A stretch of DNA of 64,000 nucleotides from a bacterium (GTDB taxonomy: Bacteria; UBA10199; JACPAL01; GCA-016699445): the NCBI GenBank assembly GCA_035454885.1, contig DATIGE010000004.1, forward strand, positions 67,096 through 131,095, in the 5' to 3' direction. Shown here one piece after another: positions 33,795 to 44,541 of the stretch. Each line of letters starts with the position of its first letter. Position 1 is the first letter of the stretch. Under the pieces are notes generated by a model. It did no database searches and had not been told where the DNA came from. It saw only the letters and a program-made list of their open reading frames with translations. The position numbers and the translations under genes were made by a program.

Positions 33795-36043
33795 TCAACG
33801 CGGATGTCATCGGACAGCACGGGCTCACCCCCGGCGAATACGGCCACATTCTGAAAATCCTGGGCCGCGAGCCCACGATGGTGGAGCTCGGGATCTTTTC
33901 GGTCATGTGGAGCGAGCATTGTTCCTACAAGAGTTCCAAGATTTATCTGAAAAAGCTTCCGACCAAGGGCCGGCAGGTCATTTGCGGGCCCGGTGAGAAC
34001 GCCGGCATCGTCGACATCGGCGACGGGCTGGCCGTCATCTTCAAGATGGAGTCGCACAACCATCCGTCGATGATCGAGCCCTATCAGGGCGCGACGACGG
34101 GCGTGGGAGGCATCCTGCGGGACATCTTCACGATGGGGGCCCGTCCGATCGCCCTCCTCAATTCGCTCCGGTTCGGGAATCCGCAACATCCGGGGATGAG
34201 GCACGTCATCGACGGGGTCGTGGGCGGCATCGCCGGTTACGGCAACTGCATGGGGATCCCGACGGTCGGCGGCGAGGTCTATTTCGACGACTGCTACAAC
34301 GGCAATGTGCTCGTGAACGCCATGTGCGTCGGCGTGGTCCGCCAGGACCGCATCTTTTACGCCAAGGCGGCGGGAGTCGGGAATCCCGTCATCTACGTGG
34401 GCTCCAAGACGGGGCGGGACGGCATCCACGGCGCCACGATGGCCTCCGACGTGTTTGAAGAGGGTTCCGAACAGAAGAGGCCGCAGGTGCAGGTCGGCGA
34501 TCCGTTCACGGAAAAACTCCTGATGGAAGCCTGTCTCGAGCTTTTTCACGGCAAGGATTGCGTCGGAATCCAGGACATGGGCGCGGCGGGCTTGACCTGC
34601 TCCTCCCTCGAAATGGCGGGGAAGGGGGGCGTCGGGATCGACTTGGACCTGGCGACGGTCCCTCAACGCGAGCAGGGCATGACGTCCTACGAAATCATGC
34701 TCTCGGAGTCCCAGGAACGGATGTTGCTCGTGGGCAAAAAGGGGTCGGAGAAGAGGATTCTGAAGCTGTTCGACAAGTGGGACCTGGATGCCGCGGTCGT
34801 CGGCCGGGTCGTCAAGGGCGACCGGGTCAAGGTCCTCAAGGAGGGAGGACTCGAGGGGACCATCCCCACGGGGCCGATCACGGACGAGGCGCCGGTGTAC
34901 AAGAGGCCGGTCAAGAAGCCGGCCTATTTGGGGCGGGTGCGCGAGGAATTCGCGGAAATTGTAGGGGCGAACCTCGTGTTCGCCCGGTCCGATGGCAGCG
35001 AAACGTTAAAGAAGTTGTTAGGTTCCCCCACCATCGCCAGCAAGAAATGGGTCTACCGCCAGTATGACCACATGGTCGGCGCGAACACGATCGTCCTGCC
35101 GGGCTCGGATGCCGCCGTCGTCCGGATCAAGGAGCCGCATACCGAAGGCAAGCTGACGAAGAAGGGCCTGGCCATGACCTCCGACTGCAACAGCCGTTAT
35201 GTCTACCTGAATCCCCGGCGGGGGGCGGCGATCGCCGTCGCCGAGGCGGCGCGGAACATCGCGTGCTCGGGCGGCCGCCCTTTGGCGGTGACGGATTGCC
35301 TGAACTTCGCGAGTCCCGAAGACCCCGAAATCATGTGGCAGTTCCGGGAGGCCCTAAACGGGATGGGAGAGGCCTGCAGGGTCTTGGGCACGCCGATCAT
35401 CTCGGGAAACGTCAGCTTTTATAATCAATCCCCGGACGGGGCGGTTTTTCCGACGCCGACGATCGGCATGATCGGGCTATTGGACGACGTCTCCACGCAC
35501 TGCACCCAATGGTTCAAGGAGGAAGGGGACGTGATCGTCTTGCTGGGCCCGTCCGCCGCGTCCGAAAGGGATCTGGGAGGATCCGAGTATTTGAAGCTGA
35601 CGACCGGCAAGATTTGCGGGGACGCGCCGGCCTTGAATCTCAAGAAAGAGAAGGCGGTCCAGGACCTCTGCCTGGCGGGGATCAAGAAGGGCTGGATTCG
35701 TTCGGCCCACGATTGTTCGGAAGGCGGGATCGCCGTCGCCCTGGCCGAATGCTGTTTCACAGGACCCGGTCTCCTGGGGGCCTCCATTGCCATCTCAGGG
35801 GACGGGGCCGTTGGATTGTTCGCCGAAACCCAATCCCGCATCCTTGTCAGCATCCGGGAATCCGATTTGCAGTCCCTCCTCAAAGCCGCTAGACTGAAAA
35901 ATGTCCCGGTAAAACAGATCGGAAGCGTTACCGGAAAGCATTTAAATATCAAAGACTTGATTAATGTTCCCGTGAAAGAACTTGAATCGGTCTGGGCATC
36001 GGGTTTTGAGAGGAGTGTGTTCGGGGAATGTGCGGCATCGTAG
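33791..36043 (+). CDS. purL: Phosphoribosylformylglycinamidine synthase subunit PurL
   Basis: It contains the AIR-synthase-related duplicated domains typical of small PurL, with the [10 protein letters not shown] motif. Confidence 0.9.
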
Positions 36044-37404
36044 GCATTTTTAACCATCCGGAGGCCGCGAACCTCGCGTATTTGGGGCTCTACGCCCTCC
36101 AGCACCGGGGGCAGGAGAGCGCGGGCATCGTCTCCTCCGACGGCAAGGCCCTGCACAGCCACCGCGACATGGGGCACGTCGCGGAGATCTTCAACGAGAC
36201 CAATCTCCAAAAACTCCCCGGATCCCGGGCCATCGGCCACGTGCGGTATTCGACGGCCGGCGAGAGCGCCCTCAAGAACTGCCAGCCGATCGCCGTGGAT
36301 TATTCCCGGGGTGGGTTGGCGGTGGCCCACAACGGGAACCTCGTCAACGCCCAGAAAATCCGCGCCGAGCTCGAGGCCCACGGGTCGATCTTCCAGTCCA
36401 CGATGGACACGGAGGTCATCATCCACCTCATTGCGCAGTCGACCAAGAGCTCTCTCGTCGAGAGGATCATCGACGCCCTGAAACAGGTGAAGGGGGCCTA
36501 TTCGCTCGTCTTTCTGACCGAGACCCGCATGATCGCCGCGCGCGATCCCTTCGGTTGGAGGCCGCTCGTCGTTGGCCGCAAGGGCGATGCCTGGGTCGTG
36601 GCGAGCGAGACCTGTGCGCTGGACTTGATCGAGGCGGATTTTGTGCGCGAGATGGACCCCGGCGAGGTCCTGGTGTTTGACAAGGACGGCATGCATTCCG
36701 AAAAGCCGTTCGGCGTCCCTCACAAGAAGGCGATGTGCATCTTCGAGTTCATCTACTTCGCCAGGCCGGACAGCCACATTTTTGGCCGGGACGTCTACCT
36801 CATGCGGAAGGGTTTCGGGCAGCAGCTCGCTCGGGAGCACAGGATCGAGGGAGACATCGTGATCCCCATCCCGGACAGCGGCGTGCCGGCGGCCCTGGGT
36901 TACGCGGAGGAGTCCGGCATCCCGTTTCAGTTGGGCCTGATCCGGAACCACTACGTGGGCCGGACGTTCATCGAGCCCAAAGATTCGATCCGGCACTTCG
37001 GGGTGAAGATCAAATTGAATCCGGTGCGCGAGCTGATCAAGGACAAGAGGGTGATCGTCGTCGATGACTCGATCGTGAGGGGCACGACCTCCAAGAAGAT
37101 CGTGAAGATGATCCGGGACGCGGGGGCGAAGGAGGTCCACATGCTCATTTCCTCGCCGCCCACGACGGACCCCTGCTTCTACGGCATCGACACGCCGAGC
37201 CGCGGGGAGCTGATCGCCTCGTCGCACTCGGTCGAAGAGATCCGCAAATACATCGGGGCTGATACATTGGGCTATCTTTCGACGAAGGGGCTCTACTGGT
37301 TCGAGAAGAATCCCGGTGAATGGTTTTGCGACGCGTGCTTTACGGGGAACTACCCGGTTCCCGTGGAGGAAAGCTCAAGCAAACTCAAGCTGGCATCGAG
37401 ATAG
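36028..37404 (+). CDS. purF: Amidophosphoribosyltransferase
   Basis: The N-terminus MCGIVGI (Ntn Cys) and the PRTase domain are present. The start overlaps purL by 16 nt. Confidence 0.9.
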
Positions 37405-37407
37405 GGC

Positions 37408-38946
37408 TCACTTCTTCTCCGGCATCTTGAAACAATAATGCTCCCAAAGACTGATCTTCTCGGGCTCGGCCTCCCGTTCGGGGAGCGTATCTTCCTTCAT
37501 GTAGTAGATCGTGAAGTGGTCCAGCTTTTCGCCTGCCCTGTGGCTGTCGTTCCATGACCGGCAAAGGTACTTTCCGTAGAACTCCCGGAAGTTTGCAAAA
37601 TCCCGGCTCCAGAGGTTCATCATGTATTTCTGCCAGCGCTGGTTCTTGTAGGTGTAGGCGACGTACTTGGGCTTTTCCCAGGAGACCGGACCGCCGCCCC
37701 GGAAGACGTCGATCTCCGTCCCATCCACGAGCGTGCCCGGGATCACGTACCAGCCGTCGTCCTTGAGCGGATAGGGCGCGAACATGTTCCATTGCTGGTC
37801 GATCCGGAGGGCCGAGCCGATCCATTTGAGCCGACCGGGCACGTCGATCTTTTTCTTCAGAAAGGACGCGGGAAGGGTGCCCAAATTCCAAAGGAGGACG
37901 TAGGCGAGAAAGAAGGCGGCGGTCAGATTGAGCCAGCGGGGCGTCGCGACGGAGGGCGGTTTGGGCGGCAGGCGGCGCTGCAGCGGCTCGAAAAAGGCCC
38001 GTGTGCGCATCCATTCGGCCGCACGAAGACCCCATCCGCTAAAGGCTTTGAAGGTGCGTGGCAGTTTGTCCCAAAAGACCGAAGGGATCATCGGAAAGGT
38101 CGCGCAAAAACAGATCCACGGAAAGATGTAGACCCGGATCGCAGAGCCGAACCCCATCTGCATCCCAAAGAGAAGGAGGATGGCGGCGAGGCGGAAAAAG
38201 CCCGTCCAAACCGGGATGAAGAAAAGGAGCGGCCCGAAGATCTCGATCTTGATGGTGAGGTAGGTCAGGGCCTTCATGAGACCGGGGTGGCCGAGGAGCC
38301 AATGGCCGAGGGGGGTGGTGAGCTGGTCGATGCTCATGGCGTAGTAGACGGCCGTGTAGGTCTTCGTCCATTCGGGACCCGTCTTAAGGATGCCGGCGAA
38401 GAAATAGAGAAGAAACGCCTGAAAGAGGACTCCCGCCGTCGCCCAAGTGAGGACCATCTTCGGGTCCGTTTCTTCGGAGACGCGTGCCAGGCGGCGGTCC
38501 ATCGAGCACCGGGCTCCGAGAGGAAGGAACATCGCCCAAAAGAGGATCATCCGAAACAGGATGTCGCCGCCCTGGAGGACCAAGGGATTCCGGTTCTGGA
38601 GCGAGACCAAGAGGAGCCAAGACCCGACGGTCATGAAGCGCGTCCGGTACCCGAGGAGCAGGCCGAGGGCGAAAAGCGCCGCGACGAGAAAGAGGAAGGC
38701 CTGCCACTGCCAGGTCCCGTTCATGAAATGGAAGGAGAAGCACGAGGGGTGCAGAAAGAGATCGAGCAACGCTCCGCGGGGCATGAGGCCCCAGTCGGTG
38801 TAGTGGGCCCTCAAATCTCGGGCCCGGTCGGCGAGGTCGAAAAAAATGAGGACCGCCAGCCCGATCCGGAATGCGGCGAGAGAGCGCAGGTCGCTGCCGA
38901 ATATGTGAGTCAGCTTGTCCCTGAGCCGCGCGCGGAAGTCCCCCAT
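37408..38946 (-). CDS. HTTM-domain (vitamin K-dependent gamma-carboxylase-like) polytopic membrane protein with ~170-aa C-terminal soluble domain
   Basis: The N-terminus DLRSLAAFRIGLAVLIFFDL is characteristic of HTTM, with ~8 TM segments. The C-terminal domain contains QQWNMFAPYP...DGWYVIPG. It is the last gene of the ECF operon. Confidence 0.65.
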   Translation of the reverse strand: MGDFRARLRDKLTHIFGSDLRSLAAFRIGLAVLIFFDLADRARDLRAHYTDWGLMPRGALLDLFLHPSCFSFHFMNGTWQWQAFLFLVAALFALGLLLGYRTRFMTVGSWLLLVSLQNRNPLVLQGGDILFRMILFWAMFLPLGARCSMDRRLARVSEETDPKMVLTWATAGVLFQAFLLYFFAGILKTGPEWTKTYTAVYYAMSIDQLTTPLGHWLLGHPGLMKALTYLTIKIEIFGPLLFFIPVWTGFFRLAAILLLFGMQMGFGSAIRVYIFPWICFCATFPMIPSVFWDKLPRTFKAFSGWGLRAAEWMRTRAFFEPLQRRLPPKPPSVATPRWLNLTAAFFLAYVLLWNLGTLPASFLKKKIDVPGRLKWIGSALRIDQQWNMFAPYPLKDDGWYVIPGTLVDGTEIDVFRGGGPVSWEKPKYVAYTYKNQRWQKYMMNLWSRDFANFREFYGKYLCRSWNDSHRAGEKLDHFTIYYMKEDTLPEREAEPEKISLWEHYCFKMPEKK

Positions 38947-38958
38947 CGGACGGCTAAC

Positions 38959-40500
38959 TTAACGTATGGCGGCGTCGCGCGCCACAAAAGCTTCGAACAG
39001 GGTGCCTTCTTCCAGGACGGCGTCGCGGCCCTTGAAGAGGGGGTAGAAGGGCAGGAAGAAAAAGGCCGTGATCGCCGATGCGACGTCGGTCTCGGTCTCC
39101 GAGCCGGTGGGCGTCAGAGAGCCGGAGGGATTCCGCGAAATCATGCCCTCGAGCGGGATCCACTGGCCGTCCACCGCGCGGACGTAGCCCAGCCGGCAGA
39201 CGAGCTCTCCGTGGACGATCCCGCGTTTTCGGCGGAGCGCCAGGATTTCGCCTCGTGCGGGCGCCCCCGCCTCAATGACGAGCCGGTTGTTCACGTACAC
39301 GTCTTCCGCGGATTCCAGGCGGACCTGGTCTCCGGCCTGGTTGTCCTTGCTCGTGATCCTCTCCGAGAGGCGCAGACGGACCATCTCGCCCTCGCGCAGG
39401 GTCACGGCCGCGGCCTTTCCGTCGGCCAGAGGCGAGTGGATCCGACGCGACGGACTGATGCGCACCCGTTGGGCCTCGTCCGACCGGAAGTAATAGAGAC
39501 CCCCCAGGTCCGCGTCGATCGATTGCTCCTGGGAGAAGCCGCCGGAATCCTTGCGGAGGCTCAGGTCCCCGGGAGGCAGGGCGACGTAGCGGGGGGCGCC
39601 GGGTTTTTTGGGGATTTCCGCGGCGAGAGCCCCCGATTTTCGCTCGTAGACCAGAAACGTTCCCTCCTCCGCGGGTGGGAGATAGAGCAGGGGAGCGCCG
39701 GCCATGAGTTCGGTCATGTAAACCTCCCCCGTTCCGGAAAGGTTGAATTCGTAGGTGGGATGCTGGCGCTTCTGAACGGCGCTGGCCTTCAGCGACGTGT
39801 ACTGGCTTGCGAAGGAGAGGGCCTCGTTCAAGGAGACACGGCCGTCGAGGTCAAAGTCCGCCGCGCCCCTGAGGCCCGAAATGAACGTGTGCGTAAAGAG
39901 CGATCCCTGGAACTCGGAGGACTCGATCGAGTCCTCGATCGGCATGCTGGACGTGATGAAGACCTCGCCCTTGGGGAGCTGCGGCTGGTCGGACGGGATG
40001 GAGAACGGAGGGATCGGTACGCCGCCCTTGGTTTGGATCATCCGGCCGCTCTGGCAGGTGTCGAGGATGACGATTCGGGTCGTCGCCGGTATTTTTTTCA
40101 GCTCGTCGTAGAGGTCCTGAAAGTCGAGCGTCGAGGGCCCCAGTTCCAGGAGATTTCCTTCGGAGTGGCCGGAATAATAGAAGAGGAAAAGCACCTGATC
40201 CTGTGGGGTCCGGGAGAGGCGGGACGCCTTGGCCGCGAGCGCCCGGGCCTTTTCCAGGACCGTGCCGGGATTCTTGTCCAGAAGAAGGGTGACGTCGGCG
40301 TCCGCGAACCCGCCGATCTGCGTCAAGGTTCTGGAGAGGTTCTTGGCGTCCTGTTCGGCATAACGCAGGAACGGTTTTGTGTCGCTTCCCTCGTTGTTTC
40401 CGACGATGAGGGCGATCCGATGGATGGCCGCACCCGCCGGAAGCGAAACCAAGAGAAAAAGAGCGAGGAAGACCGCGCGGAAGATGGGCGTGACGTTCAC
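38959..40500 (-). CDS. Secreted caspase-family (peptidase C14) protein with C-terminal uncharacterised domain
   Basis: It has a signal peptide (MNVTPIFRAVFLALFLLVSLPAGAA). The caspase His/Cys dyad context is present (LFLFYYSGHSEGN and IVILDTCQSG). The GTG start overlaps the anti-sigma stop (GTGA). Confidence 0.7.
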   Translation of the reverse strand: MNVTPIFRAVFLALFLLVSLPAGAAIHRIALIVGNNEGSDTKPFLRYAEQDAKNLSRTLTQIGGFADADVTLLLDKNPGTVLEKARALAAKASRLSRTPQDQVLFLFYYSGHSEGNLLELGPSTLDFQDLYDELKKIPATTRIVILDTCQSGRMIQTKGGVPIPPFSIPSDQPQLPKGEVFITSSMPIEDSIESSEFQGSLFTHTFISGLRGAADFDLDGRVSLNEALSFASQYTSLKASAVQKRQHPTYEFNLSGTGEVYMTELMAGAPLLYLPPAEEGTFLVYERKSGALAAEIPKKPGAPRYVALPPGDLSLRKDSGGFSQEQSIDADLGGLYYFRSDEAQRVRISPSRRIHSPLADGKAAAVTLREGEMVRLRLSERITSKDNQAGDQVRLESAEDVYVNNRLVIEAGAPARGEILALRRKRGIVHGELVCRLGYVRAVDGQWIPLEGMISRNPSGSLTPTGSETETDVASAITAFFFLPFYPLFKGRDAVLEEGTLFEAFVARDAAIR

Positions 40501-41246
40501 TTCCTGTATAAAATCACAGAGGCCTGGGCGTAGGGAAGAGGAAGCTTGGCGGATTTCTCAATCGCAATTCCTTCCAAGGCCTTTTGGATCTCCTCCAGCT
40601 TGACGGGGGTCTTCGAGAAGACGCCGTAAAAACGCTCGTAACCGGTCTTGGGTTGCCAGCGAAGCCCCTGCGGCAGTTTCTTTTGGCTCCCCGATGCGAC
40701 GGAGGCGCTCTCGGTTCCCGAGGACGGGTAGTAGACGGACAAGGACCGGTCGGCCTCGACGCCGATCAAAATCAGATAAGGATCTCCAGCGGAGTAGACG
40801 AATTGGAGCGCCGTCCCAGCGGGGACGGCCATGCCGCTTTTCCCCCGCTCGGCCTCGCCCCCCGTCGCGGAGGCGACATAGAAGCCCAGGTCCACGCCCC
40901 CCTTCGACAGGATCTCGGGATTCGGCGCTGGCGGGGTGGGGCGGTGGTAGACCAGGAACATGATCGCCGCGACGCTCGCCATGGCGGCCGCGGCCCGGAG
41001 GGCGCCCGAGGAGCGGATCTGGTCCCAAAAGCGCCCAAACGCCGAAGGGCGCTTTTCTCTCCTCTTCTCCAAGCCTTCCCAAAAGGAGGAAAAGGGGTGT
41101 TTGATCAAGAACGCCTTCCGGTCCGCCTCAAGTTCCCGGATCTGCCCGGCGCAAGACGGGCAGGCGCGGACGTGGCCGTCCCACTTCCCGTTTCCTTCCA
41201 GGAAGGCGTTGACCAAGTCCAGCGGTCTGGGGCAATCGTCCTTCAT
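40497..41246 (-). CDS. Anti-sigma factor, zinc-binding (H-x3-C-x2-C) with single TM and periplasmic domain
   Basis: It has the ZAS-like motif HVRACPSCAG near the N-terminus and a TM helix AAAAMASVAAIMFLVY. It is translationally coupled to the ECF sigma gene (ATGA overlap). Confidence 0.65.
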   Translation of the reverse strand: MKDDCPRPLDLVNAFLEGNGKWDGHVRACPSCAGQIRELEADRKAFLIKHPFSSFWEGLEKRREKRPSAFGRFWDQIRSSGALRAAAAMASVAAIMFLVYHRPTPPAPNPEILSKGGVDLGFYVASATGGEAERGKSGMAVPAGTALQFVYSAGDPYLILIGVEADRSLSVYYPSSGTESASVASGSQKKLPQGLRWQPKTGYERFYGVFSKTPVKLEEIQKALEGIAIEKSAKLPLPYAQASVILYRK

Positions 41247-41731
41247 AGTCTGTTCCTGGCCTTGTCCATGAACTTCTTAAGCCTTTTATAGACCGTTTTT
41301 CGGGAAATTCCCAGTGCCTCAACGATCTCTTCCTGCGTCATTTCATCGAAGTAATAGCAAAAAATGATGCGCTGCGTGGTTTCATCCTCGCCTTCCATGA
41401 TTTTGACAAACCAGTCCTTGTTGACGAGTACTTCCGCGCCGTTTTCATGGGTTTGCTCCAGGACCAACTGTTCCCGGCCCACGCCCTCCATGGCCTTCCG
41501 CCAGGCCTTCCGGCTCCGAATCATGTTCAAGCAGTGATTGGTAGTGATCCGGTAGAGCCAGGTCCAGGGCGAGGAGTCGCCCCGGAAGTCGGCCTTCGCC
41601 TCCAGCACCTTGAGGAAGACGTCCTGCATGGCCTCATGGGCCGACTGTTCGTCCTTGAGCAAGGAACGCGCGCGGTTGAAGATCCAGCTTCCGTACTGTT
41701 CGTAAAGCGCTTGGATATCGTCCTTGTTCAC
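41243..41731 (-). CDS. ECF-subfamily RNA polymerase sigma factor
   Basis: A 162-aa protein with sigma-70 region 2 (DVFLKVL...WLYRITTNHCLNMIRSR) and region 4 (EMTQEEIVEALGISRKTVYKRL). Confidence 0.8.
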   Translation of the reverse strand: MNKDDIQALYEQYGSWIFNRARSLLKDEQSAHEAMQDVFLKVLEAKADFRGDSSPWTWLYRITTNHCLNMIRSRKAWRKAMEGVGREQLVLEQTHENGAEVLVNKDWFVKIMEGEDETTQRIIFCYYFDEMTQEEIVEALGISRKTVYKRLKKFMDKARNRL

Positions 41732-41842
41732 GAGGGGGGATTTTTAGACACAAGAGAGGGTCTTCACGCAACCGGCGAATCAAAAAATATATTCCGGCGC
41801 AATCTCAAAGGAGGGCGTGTCGAACGGGCGAAGGAGATTTTC

Positions 41843-42472
41843 ATGAAAACATTCATCCGCCTCGCTGTTCTCTTCGCGCTGCCGGCGAGCTTCCTCTTCA
41901 CTTCGGGCGCGAGCTCCAGCTGCGGGTCCCAGTTTGCCAATGCGCTTTTGGACAGCAATGGTTACAGCTACGGCAGCGACACCACGGACAACGGCCAAGA
42001 ATTGGACGTGGAGGACAAGCTTTTGGTGGACGGCTCGGGCGAGCACGTCAATATTGAATACAACACGCTCGTCTTTCCCGCTCAATTGAACTTTGACAAC
42101 GGGCTCTATTTCTTCGCTCCCGACCCGAATGGTGAGATCACCGGCGACAAGATCATCTGCGCGGCCGCGATCGACGAAAACGAAGTGGAAGGGGACTGCT
42201 TCCGCCAGGGGCATGTTTGCCACTTTGACTATTGGTGCGACGGCCCGAACTCCGTGGACGACAAGGATGTCTATTACCTCGGCACTTCGACCTGCCGCCG
42301 GGGTGGAGACGTCGGTCCCTTCTTGGTGCCCCTGGAAAGCCCGATGTGCGGTGAGGACCCTTACCCGGCCTGTCCCTCGAATGACCTTTTCCCCAGCGGG
42401 CCCACAGATGGAACGGTCAATCCGGAGACCCAGCCCACCGAAGATCCGGCCCCCGAGACCCAGCCCTCATAA
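41843..42472 (+). CDS. Secreted acidic cysteine-rich protein (8 Cys), hypothetical
   Basis: It has a signal peptide (MKTFIRLAVLFALPASFLFTSGASS) and an AAGGAG RBS at 41831. It is Asp/Glu-rich and ends in a Pro/Thr/Glu tail. It is divergent from the ECF sigma gene. Confidence 0.6.
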   Translation: MKTFIRLAVLFALPASFLFTSGASSSCGSQFANALLDSNGYSYGSDTTDNGQELDVEDKLLVDGSGEHVNIEYNTLVFPAQLNFDNGLYFFAPDPNGEITGDKIICAAAIDENEVEGDCFRQGHVCHFDYWCDGPNSVDDKDVYYLGTSTCRRGGDVGPFLVPLESPMCGEDPYPACPSNDLFPSGPTDGTVNPETQPTEDPAPETQPS

Positions 42473-43709: not shown

Positions 43710-44126
43710 GTGATGCCCACATTCGAGTCATCGGAGCGGCTGAAGGAGGTCCTGGGAGGGTTTTTTGAGTACCTGACGACGGACGAGGCGATGCGGAAAA
43801 AGCTCCTGGACTCGAAGTTAATCCTCAAGTTCGCCTACGCCGACCCGCCGCTCGCCATCACGATTGACTTGTCCGGCGAATCCCCCGTCTTCAGCTACAA
43901 CGACGACGTCAAGAAGGCGAATGTCGAGATGAGCATGAAGGCCGACACGGCCCATCGCTTTTGGTTCGGCAAGGTGAACCTGGTCGTCGCCCTGGCGAGG
44001 CGCGAGATGGTGGCCAAGGGGCCGATCCCCAAGATCCTCAAGCTCCTGCCCATCATCAAACCGGCGTACGACATGTACCCCAAATATCTTCAGGAAAAGG
44101 GGTTCGCTTCCTATCTCATCCCCTAA
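43710..44126 (+). CDS. SCP2 sterol-carrier-like domain protein (putative)
   Basis: Its size and pattern resemble SCP2 (FWFGKVNLVVALARREM). The assignment is tentative. Confidence 0.45.
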   Translation: MMPTFESSERLKEVLGGFFEYLTTDEAMRKKLLDSKLILKFAYADPPLAITIDLSGESPVFSYNDDVKKANVEMSMKADTAHRFWFGKVNLVVALARREMVAKGPIPKILKLLPIIKPAYDMYPKYLQEKGFASYLIP

Positions 44127-44136
44127 GGAGGATTTT

Positions 44137-44541
44137 ATGAAGACCTGGCTGACGATGATTCTGATGCTGGCGGTCCTGTCCGGGTGCGGGGCCGAGGCGG
44201 GTAACGAGGCCCTGGCGCAGTCTCCCGAGGAAGTTGACGACGGCGCCATCGCCGGAGGCGTCAAGGACGCGTCGATCTCGGGTGCCGGCGGAAATGTCGC
44301 GGTCGACGCGGGATTCGCGGGAGACGGCAGCTTCATCCAGATTCCGGCGGGATTCTCGTCTGCCCAATGCAAATTCACGGCCGCCGCGGCGACCATCGAC
44401 GGCAACGCCATCTCCACGCAGGTCTCCATCAACCGCGAGACGGGCGAGGTGATCTGTGAAAAAGTTGTCCAGCCTCGCGTCGAGATTCCCCCCGAGGTCC
44501 AGGGCTGCACGGCCTCCTATACGATTGTCTGTGTGAAATGA
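44137..44541 (+). CDS. Lipoprotein, hypothetical
   Basis: It has a signal peptide with lipobox (MILMLAVLSGC). The 134-aa protein has 4 Cys in the mature part. Confidence 0.55.
   Translation: MKTWLTMILMLAVLSGCGAEAGNEALAQSPEEVDDGAIAGGVKDASISGAGGNVAVDAGFAGDGSFIQIPAGFSSAQCKFTAAAATIDGNAISTQVSINRETGEVICEKVVQPRVEIPPEVQGCTASYTIVCVK

What the first reader, a model, noticed from the sequence alone, without database searches (positions are those of the whole stretch)
37408..41731. ECF sigma / anti-sigma / secreted caspase / HTTM membrane-protein operon
Four minus-strand genes are tightly coupled, with 4-nt ATGA/GTGA overlaps and a 12-nt gap.

- An ECF sigma factor.
- A ZAS-type (HxxxCxxC) membrane anti-sigma factor.
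- A signal-peptide caspase-family protease with an intact His/Cys dyad and an extra ~250-aa C-terminal domain.
- An HTTM-domain polytopic membrane protein, related to vitamin-K gamma-glutamyl carboxylase and to SdpB-type toxin-maturation proteins, with a soluble C-terminal domain.

Coupling an envelope-signal-responsive sigma/anti-sigma switch to a periplasmic caspase and an HTTM enzyme suggests a regulated extracytoplasmic protein processing/modification module. I do not recognise this combination as a described system.
Basis: partly seen in the sequence, partly recalled or inferred. Interest (0 to 1): 0.75.

Follow-up and report, generated by a model that had tools for sequence, protein, structure and literature searches.

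The report
Caspase-linked ECF sigma switch, plus HTTM
The four genes are real and co-transcribed, but the conserved unit is a widespread, apparently undescribed trio (ECF sigma factor, membrane anti-sigma factor, secreted caspase-like protease), and the vitamin-K-carboxylase-like HTTM gene is an add-on found only in this organism's close relatives.

Summary
Observation confirmed. Four minus-strand genes (37408-41731) have ATGA and GTGA overlaps and a 12-nt gap. They encode an ECF sigma, a zinc-finger single-pass anti-sigma with a DUF4384-like periplasmic domain, a signal-peptide C14 caspase with an intact His/Cys dyad, and an HTTM protein.

Interpretation partly supported. The conserved unit is the trio sigma / anti-sigma / caspase. 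It occurs in 63 of 70 evaluable loci from GTDB genomes (Myxococcota, Spirochaetota, Bdellovibrionota). HTTM is absent from all 79 of those loci. It is also absent from three relatives (L007, L094, L095) that carry the trio at the same chromosomal site. The trees suggest it was gained once in a sub-lineage and later lost at least once.

Best model: the secreted, probably outer-membrane-tethered caspase is the site-1 protease of the anti-sigma. Both proteins carry an invariant K-G in flexible segments, commonly preceded by Arg at P3. A promoter-like motif enriched upstream of sigma occurs once in the window, upstream of sigma. Precedents are DdvA, which has a fused CHAT domain, and Craspase-Csx30-RpoE.

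The HTTM protein models as a GGCX-like enzyme that keeps the K218 and D263 equivalents. Its substrate is unknown. Verdict: a new variant of a known kind, of moderate interest.

The parts
41747..41773 (-). Candidate autoregulated ECF-type promoter, GGTTGCGTGAAGACCCTCTCTTGTGTC (-35-like GGTTGC, -10-like GTGTC), about 16 nt upstream of the sigma start codon.
   Evidence: The block is conserved in the window, L001, L003 and L004. The degenerate motif GGT[TG][GA]C-N12-18-G[GT]GT[CT] is 37-fold denser in the 200 nt upstream of sigma than elsewhere in the loci. It hits 25 loci from several phyla and occurs exactly once in the 64-kb window on either strand. The motif was derived from the same set of loci, so the enrichment is partly circular.
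41243..41731 (-). ECF sigma factor, 162 aa, GTG start.
   Evidence: Sigma70_r2 at 1e-16, region 4 at 3e-7, Sigma70_ECF at 3e-5. TIGR02937 at 6.6e-25. An orthologue lies directly upstream of the anti-sigma and caspase in 63 of 70 evaluable family loci.
40497..41246 (-). Single-pass anti-sigma factor, 249 aa. It has an N-terminal CHCC zinc-finger anti-sigma domain (C5, H25, C29, C32), a TM segment at about aa 83-100, a variable linker, an invariant K115-G116, and a DUF4384-like periplasmic domain.
   Evidence: ATGA overlap with sigma. DUF4384 matches 12 of 22 members and zf-HC2 matches 6 of 22. C5, H25, C29, C32, K115 and G116 are invariant in A7. The profile finds 857 representative clusters at E <= 1e-10, and the best 150 are all 114-341 aa.
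40899..40904 (-). Codons for K115-G116 of the anti-sigma, the predicted site-1 cleavage site. Local context is EILSK|GGVDL.
   Evidence: K is present in 78 of 80 sequences and G in 80 of 80, within an otherwise hypervariable linker. P3 is Arg in 34 of 79 and P2 is Ile or Val. Coordinates were verified. That this is a cleavage site is an inference.
38959..40500 (-). Secreted C14 caspase-like protease, 513 aa. It comprises a signal peptide, a caspase domain (H112, C149), an Ig-like beta-sandwich at about aa 260-345, and a VirB10/TrbI-like C-terminal domain at about aa 366-512 with hydrophobic helices at 468-489.
40024..40029 (-). Codons for K158-G159 of the caspase (MIQTK|GGVPI), the predicted autoprocessing or activation site in the disordered loop 9 residues after the catalytic Cys.
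   Evidence: [K/R]-G is present in 85 of 85 family caspases and lies exactly 9 aa after the Cys in 81 of 85. K is found in 77 of 79, G in 79 of 79, and P3 is Arg in 53 of 79. The loop at aa 151-171 has pLDDT below 50. That it is a cleavage site is an inference, by analogy with the caspase intersubunit linker.
37408..38946 (-). HTTM / GGCX-like polytopic membrane enzyme, 512 aa, with a C-terminal (by homology periplasmic) domain. It is a lineage-specific fourth gene of the operon.
   Evidence: PF05090 at 9.4e-9. The profile matches human GGCX at E 9e-5, with K188 aligned to K218 and E235 aligned to D263. The model has pLDDT 92 and pTM 0.90. Foldseek against the PDB finds only GGCX below E 1e-3, over about 505 columns with TMq up to 0.47. 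The gene is present only in L001-L004, L009 and L089/L090.
41843..42472 (+). Divergently transcribed acidic, Cys-rich secreted or lipoprotein-like protein (209 aa, 8 Cys, 34 Asp+Glu). It is a possible associated gene, and its membership in the system is uncertain.
   Evidence: tblastn finds it upstream of sigma in L001, L003 and L004 (76-86%), L094 and L095 (50%) and L005 (41%). It is absent from L007 and from L010-L088. It has no Pfam or PADLOC match. No copy of the sigma-upstream motif lies on its strand.

Best explanation
The locus is an autoregulated ECF sigma / anti-sigma signalling operon whose dedicated partner is a secreted caspase-like protease.

Proposed mechanism:
1. At rest, the cytoplasmic CHCC zinc-finger domain of the single-pass anti-sigma sequesters the sigma. 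This step is inferred from homology to ZAS anti-sigma factors and DdvA.
2. The caspase is exported and tethered at or near the outer membrane by its C-terminal module. In this clade the module is a VirB10-like barrel with hydrophobic helices. In Myxococcota it looks like an OMP-type beta-barrel. The caspase and Ig-like domains lie in the periplasm, and the enzyme is a zymogen.
3. An unknown envelope signal activates the caspase. Activation probably involves cleavage at the invariant R-x-K158|G-G loop, 9 residues after the catalytic Cys.
4. The active enzyme, which has a metacaspase/MALT1-type D-x-C pocket and so a basic P1 preference, cuts the anti-sigma at the invariant K115|G116. This removes the DUF4384 domain and leaves a short periplasmic stub.
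5. An RseP-type site-2 protease, encoded elsewhere, then releases the sigma.
6. The sigma transcribes its own operon from the GGTTGC-N-GTGTC promoter. This gives positive feedback and more caspase.

In the window's sub-lineage the operon also expresses a GGCX-like HTTM enzyme. It retains the quinol-deprotonating Lys/acid pair and acts as an accessory output, modifying an unknown extracytoplasmic target.

Shown here: the gene architecture, the domain identities, conservation of the trio, the invariant motifs, enrichment of the promoter motif, and the patchy distribution of HTTM. Inferred: every proteolytic step, the topology, the signal, and the HTTM chemistry.
For: Conservation of the trio.
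- Sigma and anti-sigma lie directly upstream of the caspase, on the same strand, in 63 of 70 evaluable loci. Two further loci have them elsewhere in the locus.
- These loci have different flanks and come from Myxococcota, Spirochaetota and Bdellovibrionales.
- L005 and L008 independently confirm the arrangement.

The anti-sigma family.
- It is uniform at about 250 aa and DUF4384-type.
- K115-G116 is invariant inside a variable linker.

The caspase family.
- The His/Cys dyad and D147 are invariant.
- Every member has K-G, and in 81 of 85 it lies 9 residues after the Cys, in a disordered loop. The R-x-K-G signature is shared with the anti-sigma motif.
- The C-terminal modules are compatible with outer-membrane tethering.

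Promoter. The motif is 37-fold enriched upstream of sigma and is unique in the window.

Precedents.
- Craspase Csx29 cleaves Csx30, which binds the ECF sigma RpoE, and some Csx30 C-terminal domains are DUF4384 (bioRxiv 10.1101/2022.08.17.504292).
- DUF4384 is a recurrent orthocaspase accessory domain (PMC7475262).

HTTM.
- Its relationship to GGCX is supported by sequence and by fold, with the K218 and D263 equivalents conserved.
- Spacing from the caspase gene is tight, 0-14 nt, in all five HTTM-bearing loci.
Against: - There is no direct evidence for any cleavage event.
- The K-G of the anti-sigma sits at the N-terminal boundary of the folded periplasmic domain, so it could be structural.
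- The K-G-G of the caspase could be a structural or catalytic loop motif.
- Genes co-transcribed downstream of a sigma/anti-sigma pair are often regulon outputs rather than inputs.
- No anti-sigma-caspase fusions were found among the best 150 anti-sigma relatives or among 10 long caspases.
- The promoter motif was derived from the same set of loci in which its enrichment was measured.
- Five of the 70 loci have the caspase with no sigma/anti-sigma hit anywhere in the locus.
- No site-2 protease gene is in the window.
- Basic P1 specificity is inferred only from D147 and from fold neighbours.
- The role of HTTM is unknown. Its loss in L094 and its absence from all distant trios show that it is not needed for the core mechanism.
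Confidence: 0.45

Rival explanations
1. The caspase is only an output. The anti-sigma's DUF4384 domain senses the signal by itself and is processed by general envelope proteases of the DegS, Prc or RseP type. The caspase, and HTTM where present, are simply the effectors that the sigma induces. Their role could be envelope-protein turnover, programmed cell death or abortive infection, or processing of secreted proteins.
For: Co-transcription from the autoregulated promoter makes the caspase part of the regulon by construction. Many ECF operons carry output genes downstream of the anti-sigma, which is established knowledge (for example sigV-rsiV-oatA). No fusion links the anti-sigma to a protease domain. 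Five loci have the caspase with no sigma/anti-sigma pair anywhere in the locus.
Against: The pairing is very tight, 90% of loci across phyla. The anti-sigma carries precisely the accessory domain (DUF4384) that recurs with caspase-fold proteases and with Craspase substrates. The shared invariant R-x-K-G motifs are not explained by this model. No other conserved output gene exists.
Confidence: 0.3
2. All four proteins form one extracytoplasmic processing and modification machine. The HTTM enzyme post-translationally modifies a secreted substrate or the caspase itself, for example by Glu carboxylation. The caspase processes that substrate, and both act under sigma/anti-sigma control, in the manner of SdpB or RiPP maturation.
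For: HTTM has been retained next to the caspase, with a 0-14 nt gap, while diverging to 51% identity. The operon-linked HTTMs form one clade in an NJ tree. The catalytic Lys/acid pair of GGCX is conserved. Known bacterial HTTM proteins act in peptide or natural-product maturation, as with MloH and the linaridin clusters. An acidic, Cys-rich secreted protein is encoded divergently.
Against: HTTM is absent from 79 of 79 distant trio loci, and from L005, L007, L094 and L095, three of which sit at the identical syntenic site. It was apparently lost in L094, within the HTTM-bearing clade. The divergent protein occurs without HTTM in L005, L094 and L095. HTTM homologues elsewhere have no caspase or ECF neighbours. 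No sequence feature distinguishes HTTM-linked caspases from HTTM-less ones.
Confidence: 0.12
3. The caspase is a negative regulator or co-sensor. It binds the DUF4384 domain and shields the anti-sigma from proteolysis until a signal removes it. This would resemble RseB on RseA, or TonB-dependent transducers on their anti-sigma factors.
For: Strict co-occurrence. There is a precedent for an outer-membrane partner protecting an anti-sigma from proteolysis (PMC11637429, listed). The caspase appears to be outer-membrane tethered.
Against: The catalytic dyad and the S1 Asp are invariant in 40 of 40 sequences, which argues for an active protease rather than a binding scaffold.
Confidence: 0.08

Closest known systems
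Myxococcus xanthus DdvS/DdvA (ECF sigma plus a transmembrane anti-sigma with a periplasmic TPR-CHAT caspase-like domain; PMC11506125, PMC6061681)
   Different: Here the protease is a separate secreted C14 protein of about 510 aa, not a fused TPR-CHAT domain of about 900 aa. The anti-sigma's periplasmic part is a small DUF4384-like domain. The operon controls itself rather than a CBASS/CRISPR island, and no defence genes are nearby. The caspase also carries its own outer-membrane-type C-terminal module.
Type III-E CRISPR Craspase accessory module (Csx29 TPR-CHAT protease, Csx30, Csx31, RpoE; bioRxiv 10.1101/2022.08.17.504292)
   Same: A caspase-fold protease cleaves an anti-sigma-like protein (Csx30) that binds an ECF sigma. 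One group of Csx30 C-terminal domains is DUF4384, the same domain type as in the window's anti-sigma.
   Different: Craspase is cytoplasmic, RNA-guided and CRISPR-linked. Here there is no cas gene, the protease has a signal peptide, and the anti-sigma is a ZAS-type membrane protein, not Csx30. None of the proteins matched a PADLOC model.
Regulated intramembrane proteolysis of ECF anti-sigma factors (RseA with DegS and RseP; cell-surface signalling with FecA, FecR and FecI)
   Same: Both have a single-pass anti-sigma and an autoregulated operon. Both are predicted to need a periplasmic site-1 cut that leaves a short stub. In cell-surface signalling, an outer-membrane partner communicates with the anti-sigma.
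   Different: The candidate site-1 protease here is a dedicated, operon-encoded cysteine protease of the caspase fold. It is not a PDZ serine protease, not Prc, and not an autocleaving anti-sigma.
[quoted passage not shown]
   Same: The HTTM membrane domain matches by sequence (E 9e-5) and by fold, with GGCX the only PDB fold match. The equivalents of K218 and D263, namely K188 and E235, are conserved. The viral epoxidases likewise have Glu at the D263 position.
   Different: Identity is only 15-17% and TMq is up to 0.47. The N290 equivalent is not conserved in the alignment. The region needed for carboxylation (GGCX residues 374-418) could not be matched. No Gla-type substrate is known. The protein belongs to a large bacterial subfamily, often fused to DCC1-like thiol-disulfide oxidoreductases, that has no characterised member.
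Metacaspases, orthocaspases and the MALT1 paracaspase
   Different: This protein is secreted, has a VirB10-like or OMP-like C-terminal module, and has an invariant R-x-K-G-G loop. It is genetically wedded to a sigma/anti-sigma pair. It scores below the cut-off for the NCBIfam EACC1-associated caspase model, 59 against 140 bits.

Membership tests
ECF (group IV) sigma-70 family | Only regions sigma-2 and sigma-4 are present, and the protein is about 160-200 aa. | tested here: met
   Sigma70_r2 at 1e-16 and Sigma70_r4 or r4_2 at about 1e-7. TIGR02937 scores 87.7 bits against a 42.9-bit cut-off. The protein is 162 aa.
ECF (group IV) sigma-70 family | Co-transcribed cognate anti-sigma factor and an autoregulated promoter. 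| tested here: inconclusive
   The anti-sigma overlaps sigma by 4 nt. A conserved bipartite motif is enriched 37-fold upstream of sigma. There are no transcription data, and the motif was derived from the same loci.
ZAS / zf-HC2 class I anti-sigma factors | An N-terminal H-x3-C-x2-C zinc-binding anti-sigma domain followed by a TM helix. | tested here: met
   H25, C29, C32 and C5 are invariant in A7. zf-HC2 (PF13490) matches 6 of 22 family members, best E 1.7e-5. A hydrophobic segment lies at aa 83-100. Zinc binding and sigma binding were not tested.
DUF4384 (PF14326) domain proteins | A match to the Pfam model at the gathering threshold. | tested here: inconclusive
   The window protein scores 20.3 bits against a 27-bit cut-off, E 5.9e-4. 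Twelve of 22 family members match at E <= 0.01, best 2.8e-7. Precomputed hits exist in L004, L005 and L089. Family-level membership is likely, but the window protein itself is sub-threshold.
Peptidase C14 (caspase / metacaspase / orthocaspase) | The caspase-hemoglobinase fold with a catalytic His-Cys dyad. | tested here: met
   [not shown]
Peptidase C14 (caspase / metacaspase / orthocaspase) | Proteolytic activity and P1 specificity. | not testable with these tools
   Only inferred. D147 lies two residues before the Cys, as in metacaspases and MALT1, which have a basic P1 preference.
NCBIfam NF047832, EACC1-associated caspase | A score above the curated cut-off. | tested here: not met
   59.4 bits against a 140-bit cut-off. 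It is not filed there.
DdvA-type caspase-fold anti-sigma systems | The caspase-like (CHAT) domain is fused to the anti-sigma's periplasmic end. | tested here: not met
   Here they are two separate genes. The best 150 of the 3168 anti-sigma relatives are all 114-341 aa, with no fused forms. The locus may work like DdvA, but it is not a member.
Type III-E Craspase module | Association with Cas7-11, Csx29, Csx30 and Csx31. | tested here: not met
   The flanks are purF, purL, Fe-ADH and PGI. Only the sigma gave PADLOC matches, and those were weak generic HTH-type hits (CARF3, Csa3, mad1, E 2e-4 to 2e-3). The anti-sigma, caspase and HTTM gave none.
HTTM domain family (PF05090) / GGCX-like enzymes | The HTTM polytopic membrane domain. 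| tested here: met
   PF05090 scores 35.7 bits against a 27.7-bit cut-off. The profile matches GGCX at E 9e-5. Foldseek gives 16 hits at E <= 1e-3 and all of them are GGCX, best E 3.4e-8.
HTTM domain family (PF05090) / GGCX-like enzymes | The catalytic Lys (K218) and its acidic partner (D263) for vitamin K hydroquinone deprotonation. | tested here: met
   K188 (invariant) aligns to K218, and E235 (at least 90% conserved) aligns to D263. The residue roles are from PMC13486548.
HTTM domain family (PF05090) / GGCX-like enzymes | Gamma-carboxylase activity: the region at residues 374-418, the N290 contact, and Gla substrates with a propeptide. | tested here: inconclusive
   N290 aligns to F266 in a low-confidence stretch. 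The C-terminal domain is not alignable by sequence. No substrate was identified. Quinone dependence is not testable here.

The most novel reading that the evidence does not exclude
Two linked readings remain open.

(a) The trio defines a large, unstudied class of bacterial envelope signalling in which a secreted, outer-membrane-tethered caspase zymogen is both the sensor and the site-1 protease for an ECF anti-sigma. The class spans at least 471 GTDB species loci and at least 857 anti-sigma clusters. The cleavage code would be a shared R-x-K|G.

(b) In the window's lineage this protease switch has recruited a vitamin-K-carboxylase homologue. That enzyme would modify the protease, its acidic Cys-rich neighbour or the anti-sigma. 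This would be a bacterial parallel to vitamin-K-dependent carboxylation of protease zymogens in blood coagulation.
Probability: 0.07. Interest if true: 0.85.

Novelty: new variant of a known kind. Interest (0 to 1): 0.55.

Why it matters
ECF sigma/anti-sigma pairs are a major bacterial signalling mode, and for most of them the signal and the first protease are unknown. This family offers a dedicated, operon-encoded candidate site-1 protease of the caspase fold, with a precise predicted cleavage site in both the protease and its substrate. That makes the mechanism directly testable in cultivable Myxococcus, Corallococcus or Archangium.

It would generalise the idea raised by DdvA and Craspase, that caspase-fold proteases gate ECF sigma factors, from two special cases to a widespread stand-alone module. 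It would also give bacterial caspase homologues a signalling role unrelated to cell death.

The HTTM add-on gives one of the very few genomic handles on the function of a large, uncharacterised bacterial GGCX-like subfamily that keeps the catalytic residues.

Tried and rejected
- **Close relatives as evidence.** L001, L003 and L004 keep the four genes but also keep all the flanking synteny, so they are not independent evidence.
- **Genome scan with the 40-sequence caspase alignment.** I repeated it with 13 sequences.
- **Single-sequence PDB searches.** Neither HTTM nor the caspase found anything. Profiles and models were needed.
- **Exact bipartite k-mer search for a universal promoter.** It gave only subclade motifs. 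A degenerate version worked but is partly circular. The sigma-70 consensus scan gave nothing meaningful: one intragenic hit, and terminator-like sites at background level.
- **Search for a conserved fourth gene or a conserved divergent gene across the 79 loci.** None was found beyond lineage-specific synteny.
- **Search for Rosetta-stone fusions.** None was found: 10 long caspases carry no DUF4384, and none of the best 150 anti-sigma relatives is fused.
- **PADLOC.** There were no hits apart from generic HTH hits for the sigma, so a catalogued defence system is rejected.
- **Pfam on neighbouring unknown genes of L005, L007 and L008.** Nothing was found.
- **A first regex for the caspase K-G loop.** It was wrong and was corrected.
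- **RseP-like motif scan of the window.** No candidate was found.
- **ECF reclassification paper (PMC7826278).** The main text does not mention caspase, C14, DUF4384 or HTTM. Its supplementary group descriptions are not held, so I could not exclude that an ECF group with this neighbourhood is listed there.
- **The long plus-strand ORF at 37792-40533 (913 aa), antisense to the caspase and HTTM genes.** I dismissed it as a high-GC artefact, because all the homology support is on the minus strand.

Full report
**1. The observation**

I read the junctions directly from the sequence. They are an ATGA overlap, a GTGA overlap, and TAA followed by 12 nt and then ATG.

Profile HMMs support every domain call.
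- The sigma has Sigma70_r2 at 1e-16, region 4, and TIGR02937 at 6.6e-25.
- The caspase has Peptidase_C14 at 5.9e-16.
- The fourth protein has HTTM at 9.4e-9.
- The anti-sigma has a sub-threshold DUF4384 hit.

The window matches (100% identity for the HTTM and anti-sigma proteins) an NCBI MAG contig of 155 kb labelled only 'bacterium'. The flanks are housekeeping genes: purQ, purL and purF on one side, and Fe-ADH, an SCP2-like gene and PGI on the other. GC content is even at about 0.61. This is not an island.

**2. The conserved unit**

Relatives with 69-86% HTTM identity (L001, L003, L004) keep the four genes, but they also keep all the flanking synteny, so they say little.

More distant caspase homologues are informative.
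- L005, from groundwater, has 44% caspase identity and different flanks. It carries sigma, anti-sigma and caspase but no HTTM.
- L008, a Myxococcota genome, has 35% caspase identity and different flanks. It also carries the trio without HTTM.
- L007 (57%), L094 (60%) and L095 (49%) sit at the very same site between Fe-ADH and purF. They have the trio, but the caspase gene is followed by purF (in L007 after a small 147-aa gene on the opposite strand).

I examined the best 80. They come mostly from Myxococcota (Myxococcus, Corallococcus, Archangium, Nannocystis, Haliangium, Polyangia). Others come from Spirochaetota, Fibrobacteria and Bdellovibrionales.

I built HMMs from the window and its relatives and searched them against six-frame ORFs of these loci. 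Of the 70 non-clade loci with at least 1.5 kb of upstream sequence, 63 have sigma and anti-sigma directly upstream on the same strand. Two more have them elsewhere in the locus. None of the 79 has an HTTM within 8 kb. A tblastn check agreed. No other fourth gene is conserved.

HTTM homologues at 44-49% identity lie in unrelated neighbourhoods.

L089 has 62% caspase identity and 51% HTTM identity, and it has all four genes. In NJ trees (no bootstrap support was computed) the operon-linked HTTMs form one clade. The HTTM-less L094 caspase nests beside the HTTM-bearing L089 caspase. The simplest history is one gain of HTTM in a sub-lineage and at least one later loss.

The conserved functional unit is therefore the trio. 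HTTM is a dispensable, lineage-specific addition.

**3. Anatomy of the trio**

*Anti-sigma.* Sequences from 80 loci align into one architecture of about 250 aa. It has an N-terminal zinc-finger motif, one TM segment, a linker of variable length and sequence, and then a periplasmic domain.
- In the window's clade, C5, H25, C29 and C32 are invariant, the CHCC arrangement described for DdvA.
- The periplasmic domain matches DUF4384 in 12 of 22 diverse members, best E 2.8e-7. zf-HC2 matches 6 of 22.
- The only near-invariant positions in the whole family are K115 (78 of 80) and G116 (80 of 80), at the end of the variable linker.
- A profile search of 1.84 billion representatives finds 857 clusters at E <= 1e-10. 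The best 150 are all 114-341 aa.

*Caspase.*
- H112, C149 and D147 are invariant in 40 homologues.
- In the distant family members this domain is replaced. Their C-terminus ends in an aromatic or aliphatic residue after alternating hydrophobic positions (56 of 71). Two members give weak OprF or OMP_b-brl hits. This suggests an outer-membrane beta-barrel.
- Both C-terminal types are therefore compatible with tethering the protease at the outer membrane. This is an inference.

*A shared motif.* Every one of 85 family caspases has K/R-G after the catalytic Cys. In 81 of them it lies exactly 9 residues downstream, in a loop that the model leaves disordered (pLDDT below 50, aa 151-171). The consensus is R-x-K-G-G, with K in 77 of 79, G in 79 of 79, and P3 Arg in 53 of 79. 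This is the position of the intersubunit linker, where caspases are cleaved for activation. That comparison rests on established knowledge: D175 of caspase-3 lies 12 residues after C163.

The anti-sigma motif has the same flavour, with P3 Arg in 34 of 79, P2 Ile or Val, then K-G. In the window the two read MIQTK-GGVPI in the caspase and EILSK-GGVDL in the anti-sigma.

*Promoter.* The intergenic region is conserved among the window, L001, L003 and L004. The degenerate bipartite motif GGT[TG][GA]C-N12-18-G[GT]GT[CT] is 37 times denser in the 200 nt upstream of sigma than elsewhere in the loci. It hits 25 loci, including Spirochaetota and L005. It occurs once in the whole window on either strand, at 41747-41773, just upstream of sigma. 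The motif was derived from the same loci, so the enrichment is partly circular. No copy precedes the divergent gene.

**4. How it most likely works**

The best-supported model is a caspase-gated ECF switch.
1. The anti-sigma holds the sigma at the membrane.
2. An envelope signal activates the exported caspase zymogen, probably by cleavage at its own R-x-K|G-G loop.
3. The caspase cuts the anti-sigma at K115|G116.
4. This leaves a periplasmic stub of roughly 15-45 residues, of the kind that site-2 proteases require.
5. The released sigma amplifies its own operon.

Two published systems give precedents.
- M. xanthus DdvA is an anti-sigma whose periplasmic end is a CHAT caspase-like domain. It is proposed to self-cleave in trans before RseP acts (PMC11506125).
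- In type III-E CRISPR systems, the caspase-like Csx29 cleaves Csx30, which binds the ECF sigma RpoE. [quoted passage not shown]

DUF4384 is also a recurrent orthocaspase accessory domain (PMC7475262).

None of the proteolytic steps is shown here. The main rival is that the caspase is merely the sigma's output. A second rival is that it shields the anti-sigma.

**5. The HTTM protein**

It belongs to a large bacterial subfamily with more than 1320 hits, many of them fused to DCC1-like thiol-disulfide oxidoreductases.
- A family profile matches human GGCX at E 9e-5.
- The model is confident, with pLDDT 92 and pTM 0.90.
- GGCX is the only PDB fold match: 16 hits, about 505 aligned columns, TMq up to 0.47.
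- In the alignment, invariant K188 corresponds to GGCX K218, and near-invariant E235 corresponds to D263. In GGCX, K218 deprotonates vitamin K hydroquinone with the help of D263, and a D263E variant retains partial activity (PMC13486548).
- N290 is not matched. The segment that GGCX needs for carboxylation could not be aligned.

The protein probably performs quinol-dependent, strong-base or epoxidase-type chemistry on the periplasmic side. Whether it carboxylates anything, and what its substrate is, remain unknown. Known bacterial HTTM proteins act in natural-product or peptide maturation, as with MloH and the linaridin clusters.

It has been retained next to the caspase, at 0-14 nt spacing, down to 51% identity. 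That argues for selected co-expression. Its absence from every distant trio, and its loss in L094, show that it is not part of the core switch.

**6. A possible fifth gene**

The divergent gene at 41843-42472 encodes a 209-aa secreted or lipoprotein-like acidic protein with 8 Cys. It is conserved upstream of sigma in L001, L003, L004, L094, L095 and L005, which includes HTTM-less loci. It is not in L007 or in the Myxococcota loci. Within this clade it is a more faithful neighbour than HTTM. It has no recognisable domain.

**7. Comparison with what is known, and novelty**

The sigma, the anti-sigma, the caspase and the HTTM protein are each members of known superfamilies. The system is not a DdvA-type fusion, not a Craspase module, and not a PADLOC-catalogued defence system. 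The caspase does not reach the EACC1-caspase cut-off.

I found no paper describing an ECF sigma, DUF4384 anti-sigma and C14 caspase trio. I could not read the supplementary ECF group descriptions of PMC7826278, so it may be listed there as a neighbourhood.

I therefore rate it a new variant of a known kind. It is a split, stand-alone form of caspase-fold control of an ECF anti-sigma, with a lineage-specific GGCX-like add-on.

**8. Verdict**

The four-gene combination is real, but it is confined to a narrow group of uncultured bacteria. The more interesting finding is the widespread trio, with its paired invariant K-G motifs, which gives sharp and cheap experimental tests in cultivable myxobacteria. 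Interest is 0.55.

Noticed in passing
[not shown]
   Followed up: partly
window 41843-42472 (+): A divergent 209-aa acidic, Cys-rich secreted or lipoprotein-like protein with no Pfam or PADLOC match. It is conserved next to sigma in L001, L003, L004, L094, L095 and L005, but not in L007 or in Myxococcota. It could be a substrate, a co-sensor or a regulon member.
   Followed up: partly
window 36028-37404 (+); L025, L029, L040, L042, L064, L065, L073, L077, L081, L087: purF lies next to the trio both in the window's clade (convergent, 3 nt between the stop codons of HTTM and purF) and in about 10 Archangiaceae and other Myxococcota loci (upstream of sigma on the opposite strand). This is either a remnant of old synteny or coincidence.
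   Followed up: no
L024 7938-11392: Two caspase-family ORFs in tandem follow one sigma/anti-sigma pair (hmmsearch E 9e-85 and 5e-75), suggesting paralogue duplication within the module.
   Followed up: no
L008 9576-12343: In this Myxococcota locus the trio is followed, on the same strand, by two genes of 417 and 494 aa with no Pfam match. They are not HTTM-like. The fourth gene of the operon seems to be a variable slot.
   Followed up: partly
window 37792-40533 (+): A 913-aa ORF lies antisense to the HTTM and caspase genes, with an Arg/Gly/Glu/Pro-rich translation. It is most likely a high-GC artefact, because all the homology support is on the minus strand.
   Followed up: partly
window 43710-44541 (+): A 138-aa ORF and a 134-aa ORF, the latter with an LSGC lipobox-like signal, lie between Fe-ADH and PGI. 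Genes of the same size at this position in L003, L007 and L095 carry faint or weak SCP2 hits. The pair is conserved in synteny in all relatives of the clade and its function is unknown.
   Followed up: no
HTTM homologues P0017, P0020-P0022 and others: Many members of this HTTM subfamily, mainly from cyanobacteria, are fused to a DCC1-like thiol-disulfide oxidoreductase domain (PF04134). This hints at a redox-coupled function for the whole subfamily. A few members also hit the LMF1 family (PF06762).
   Followed up: no
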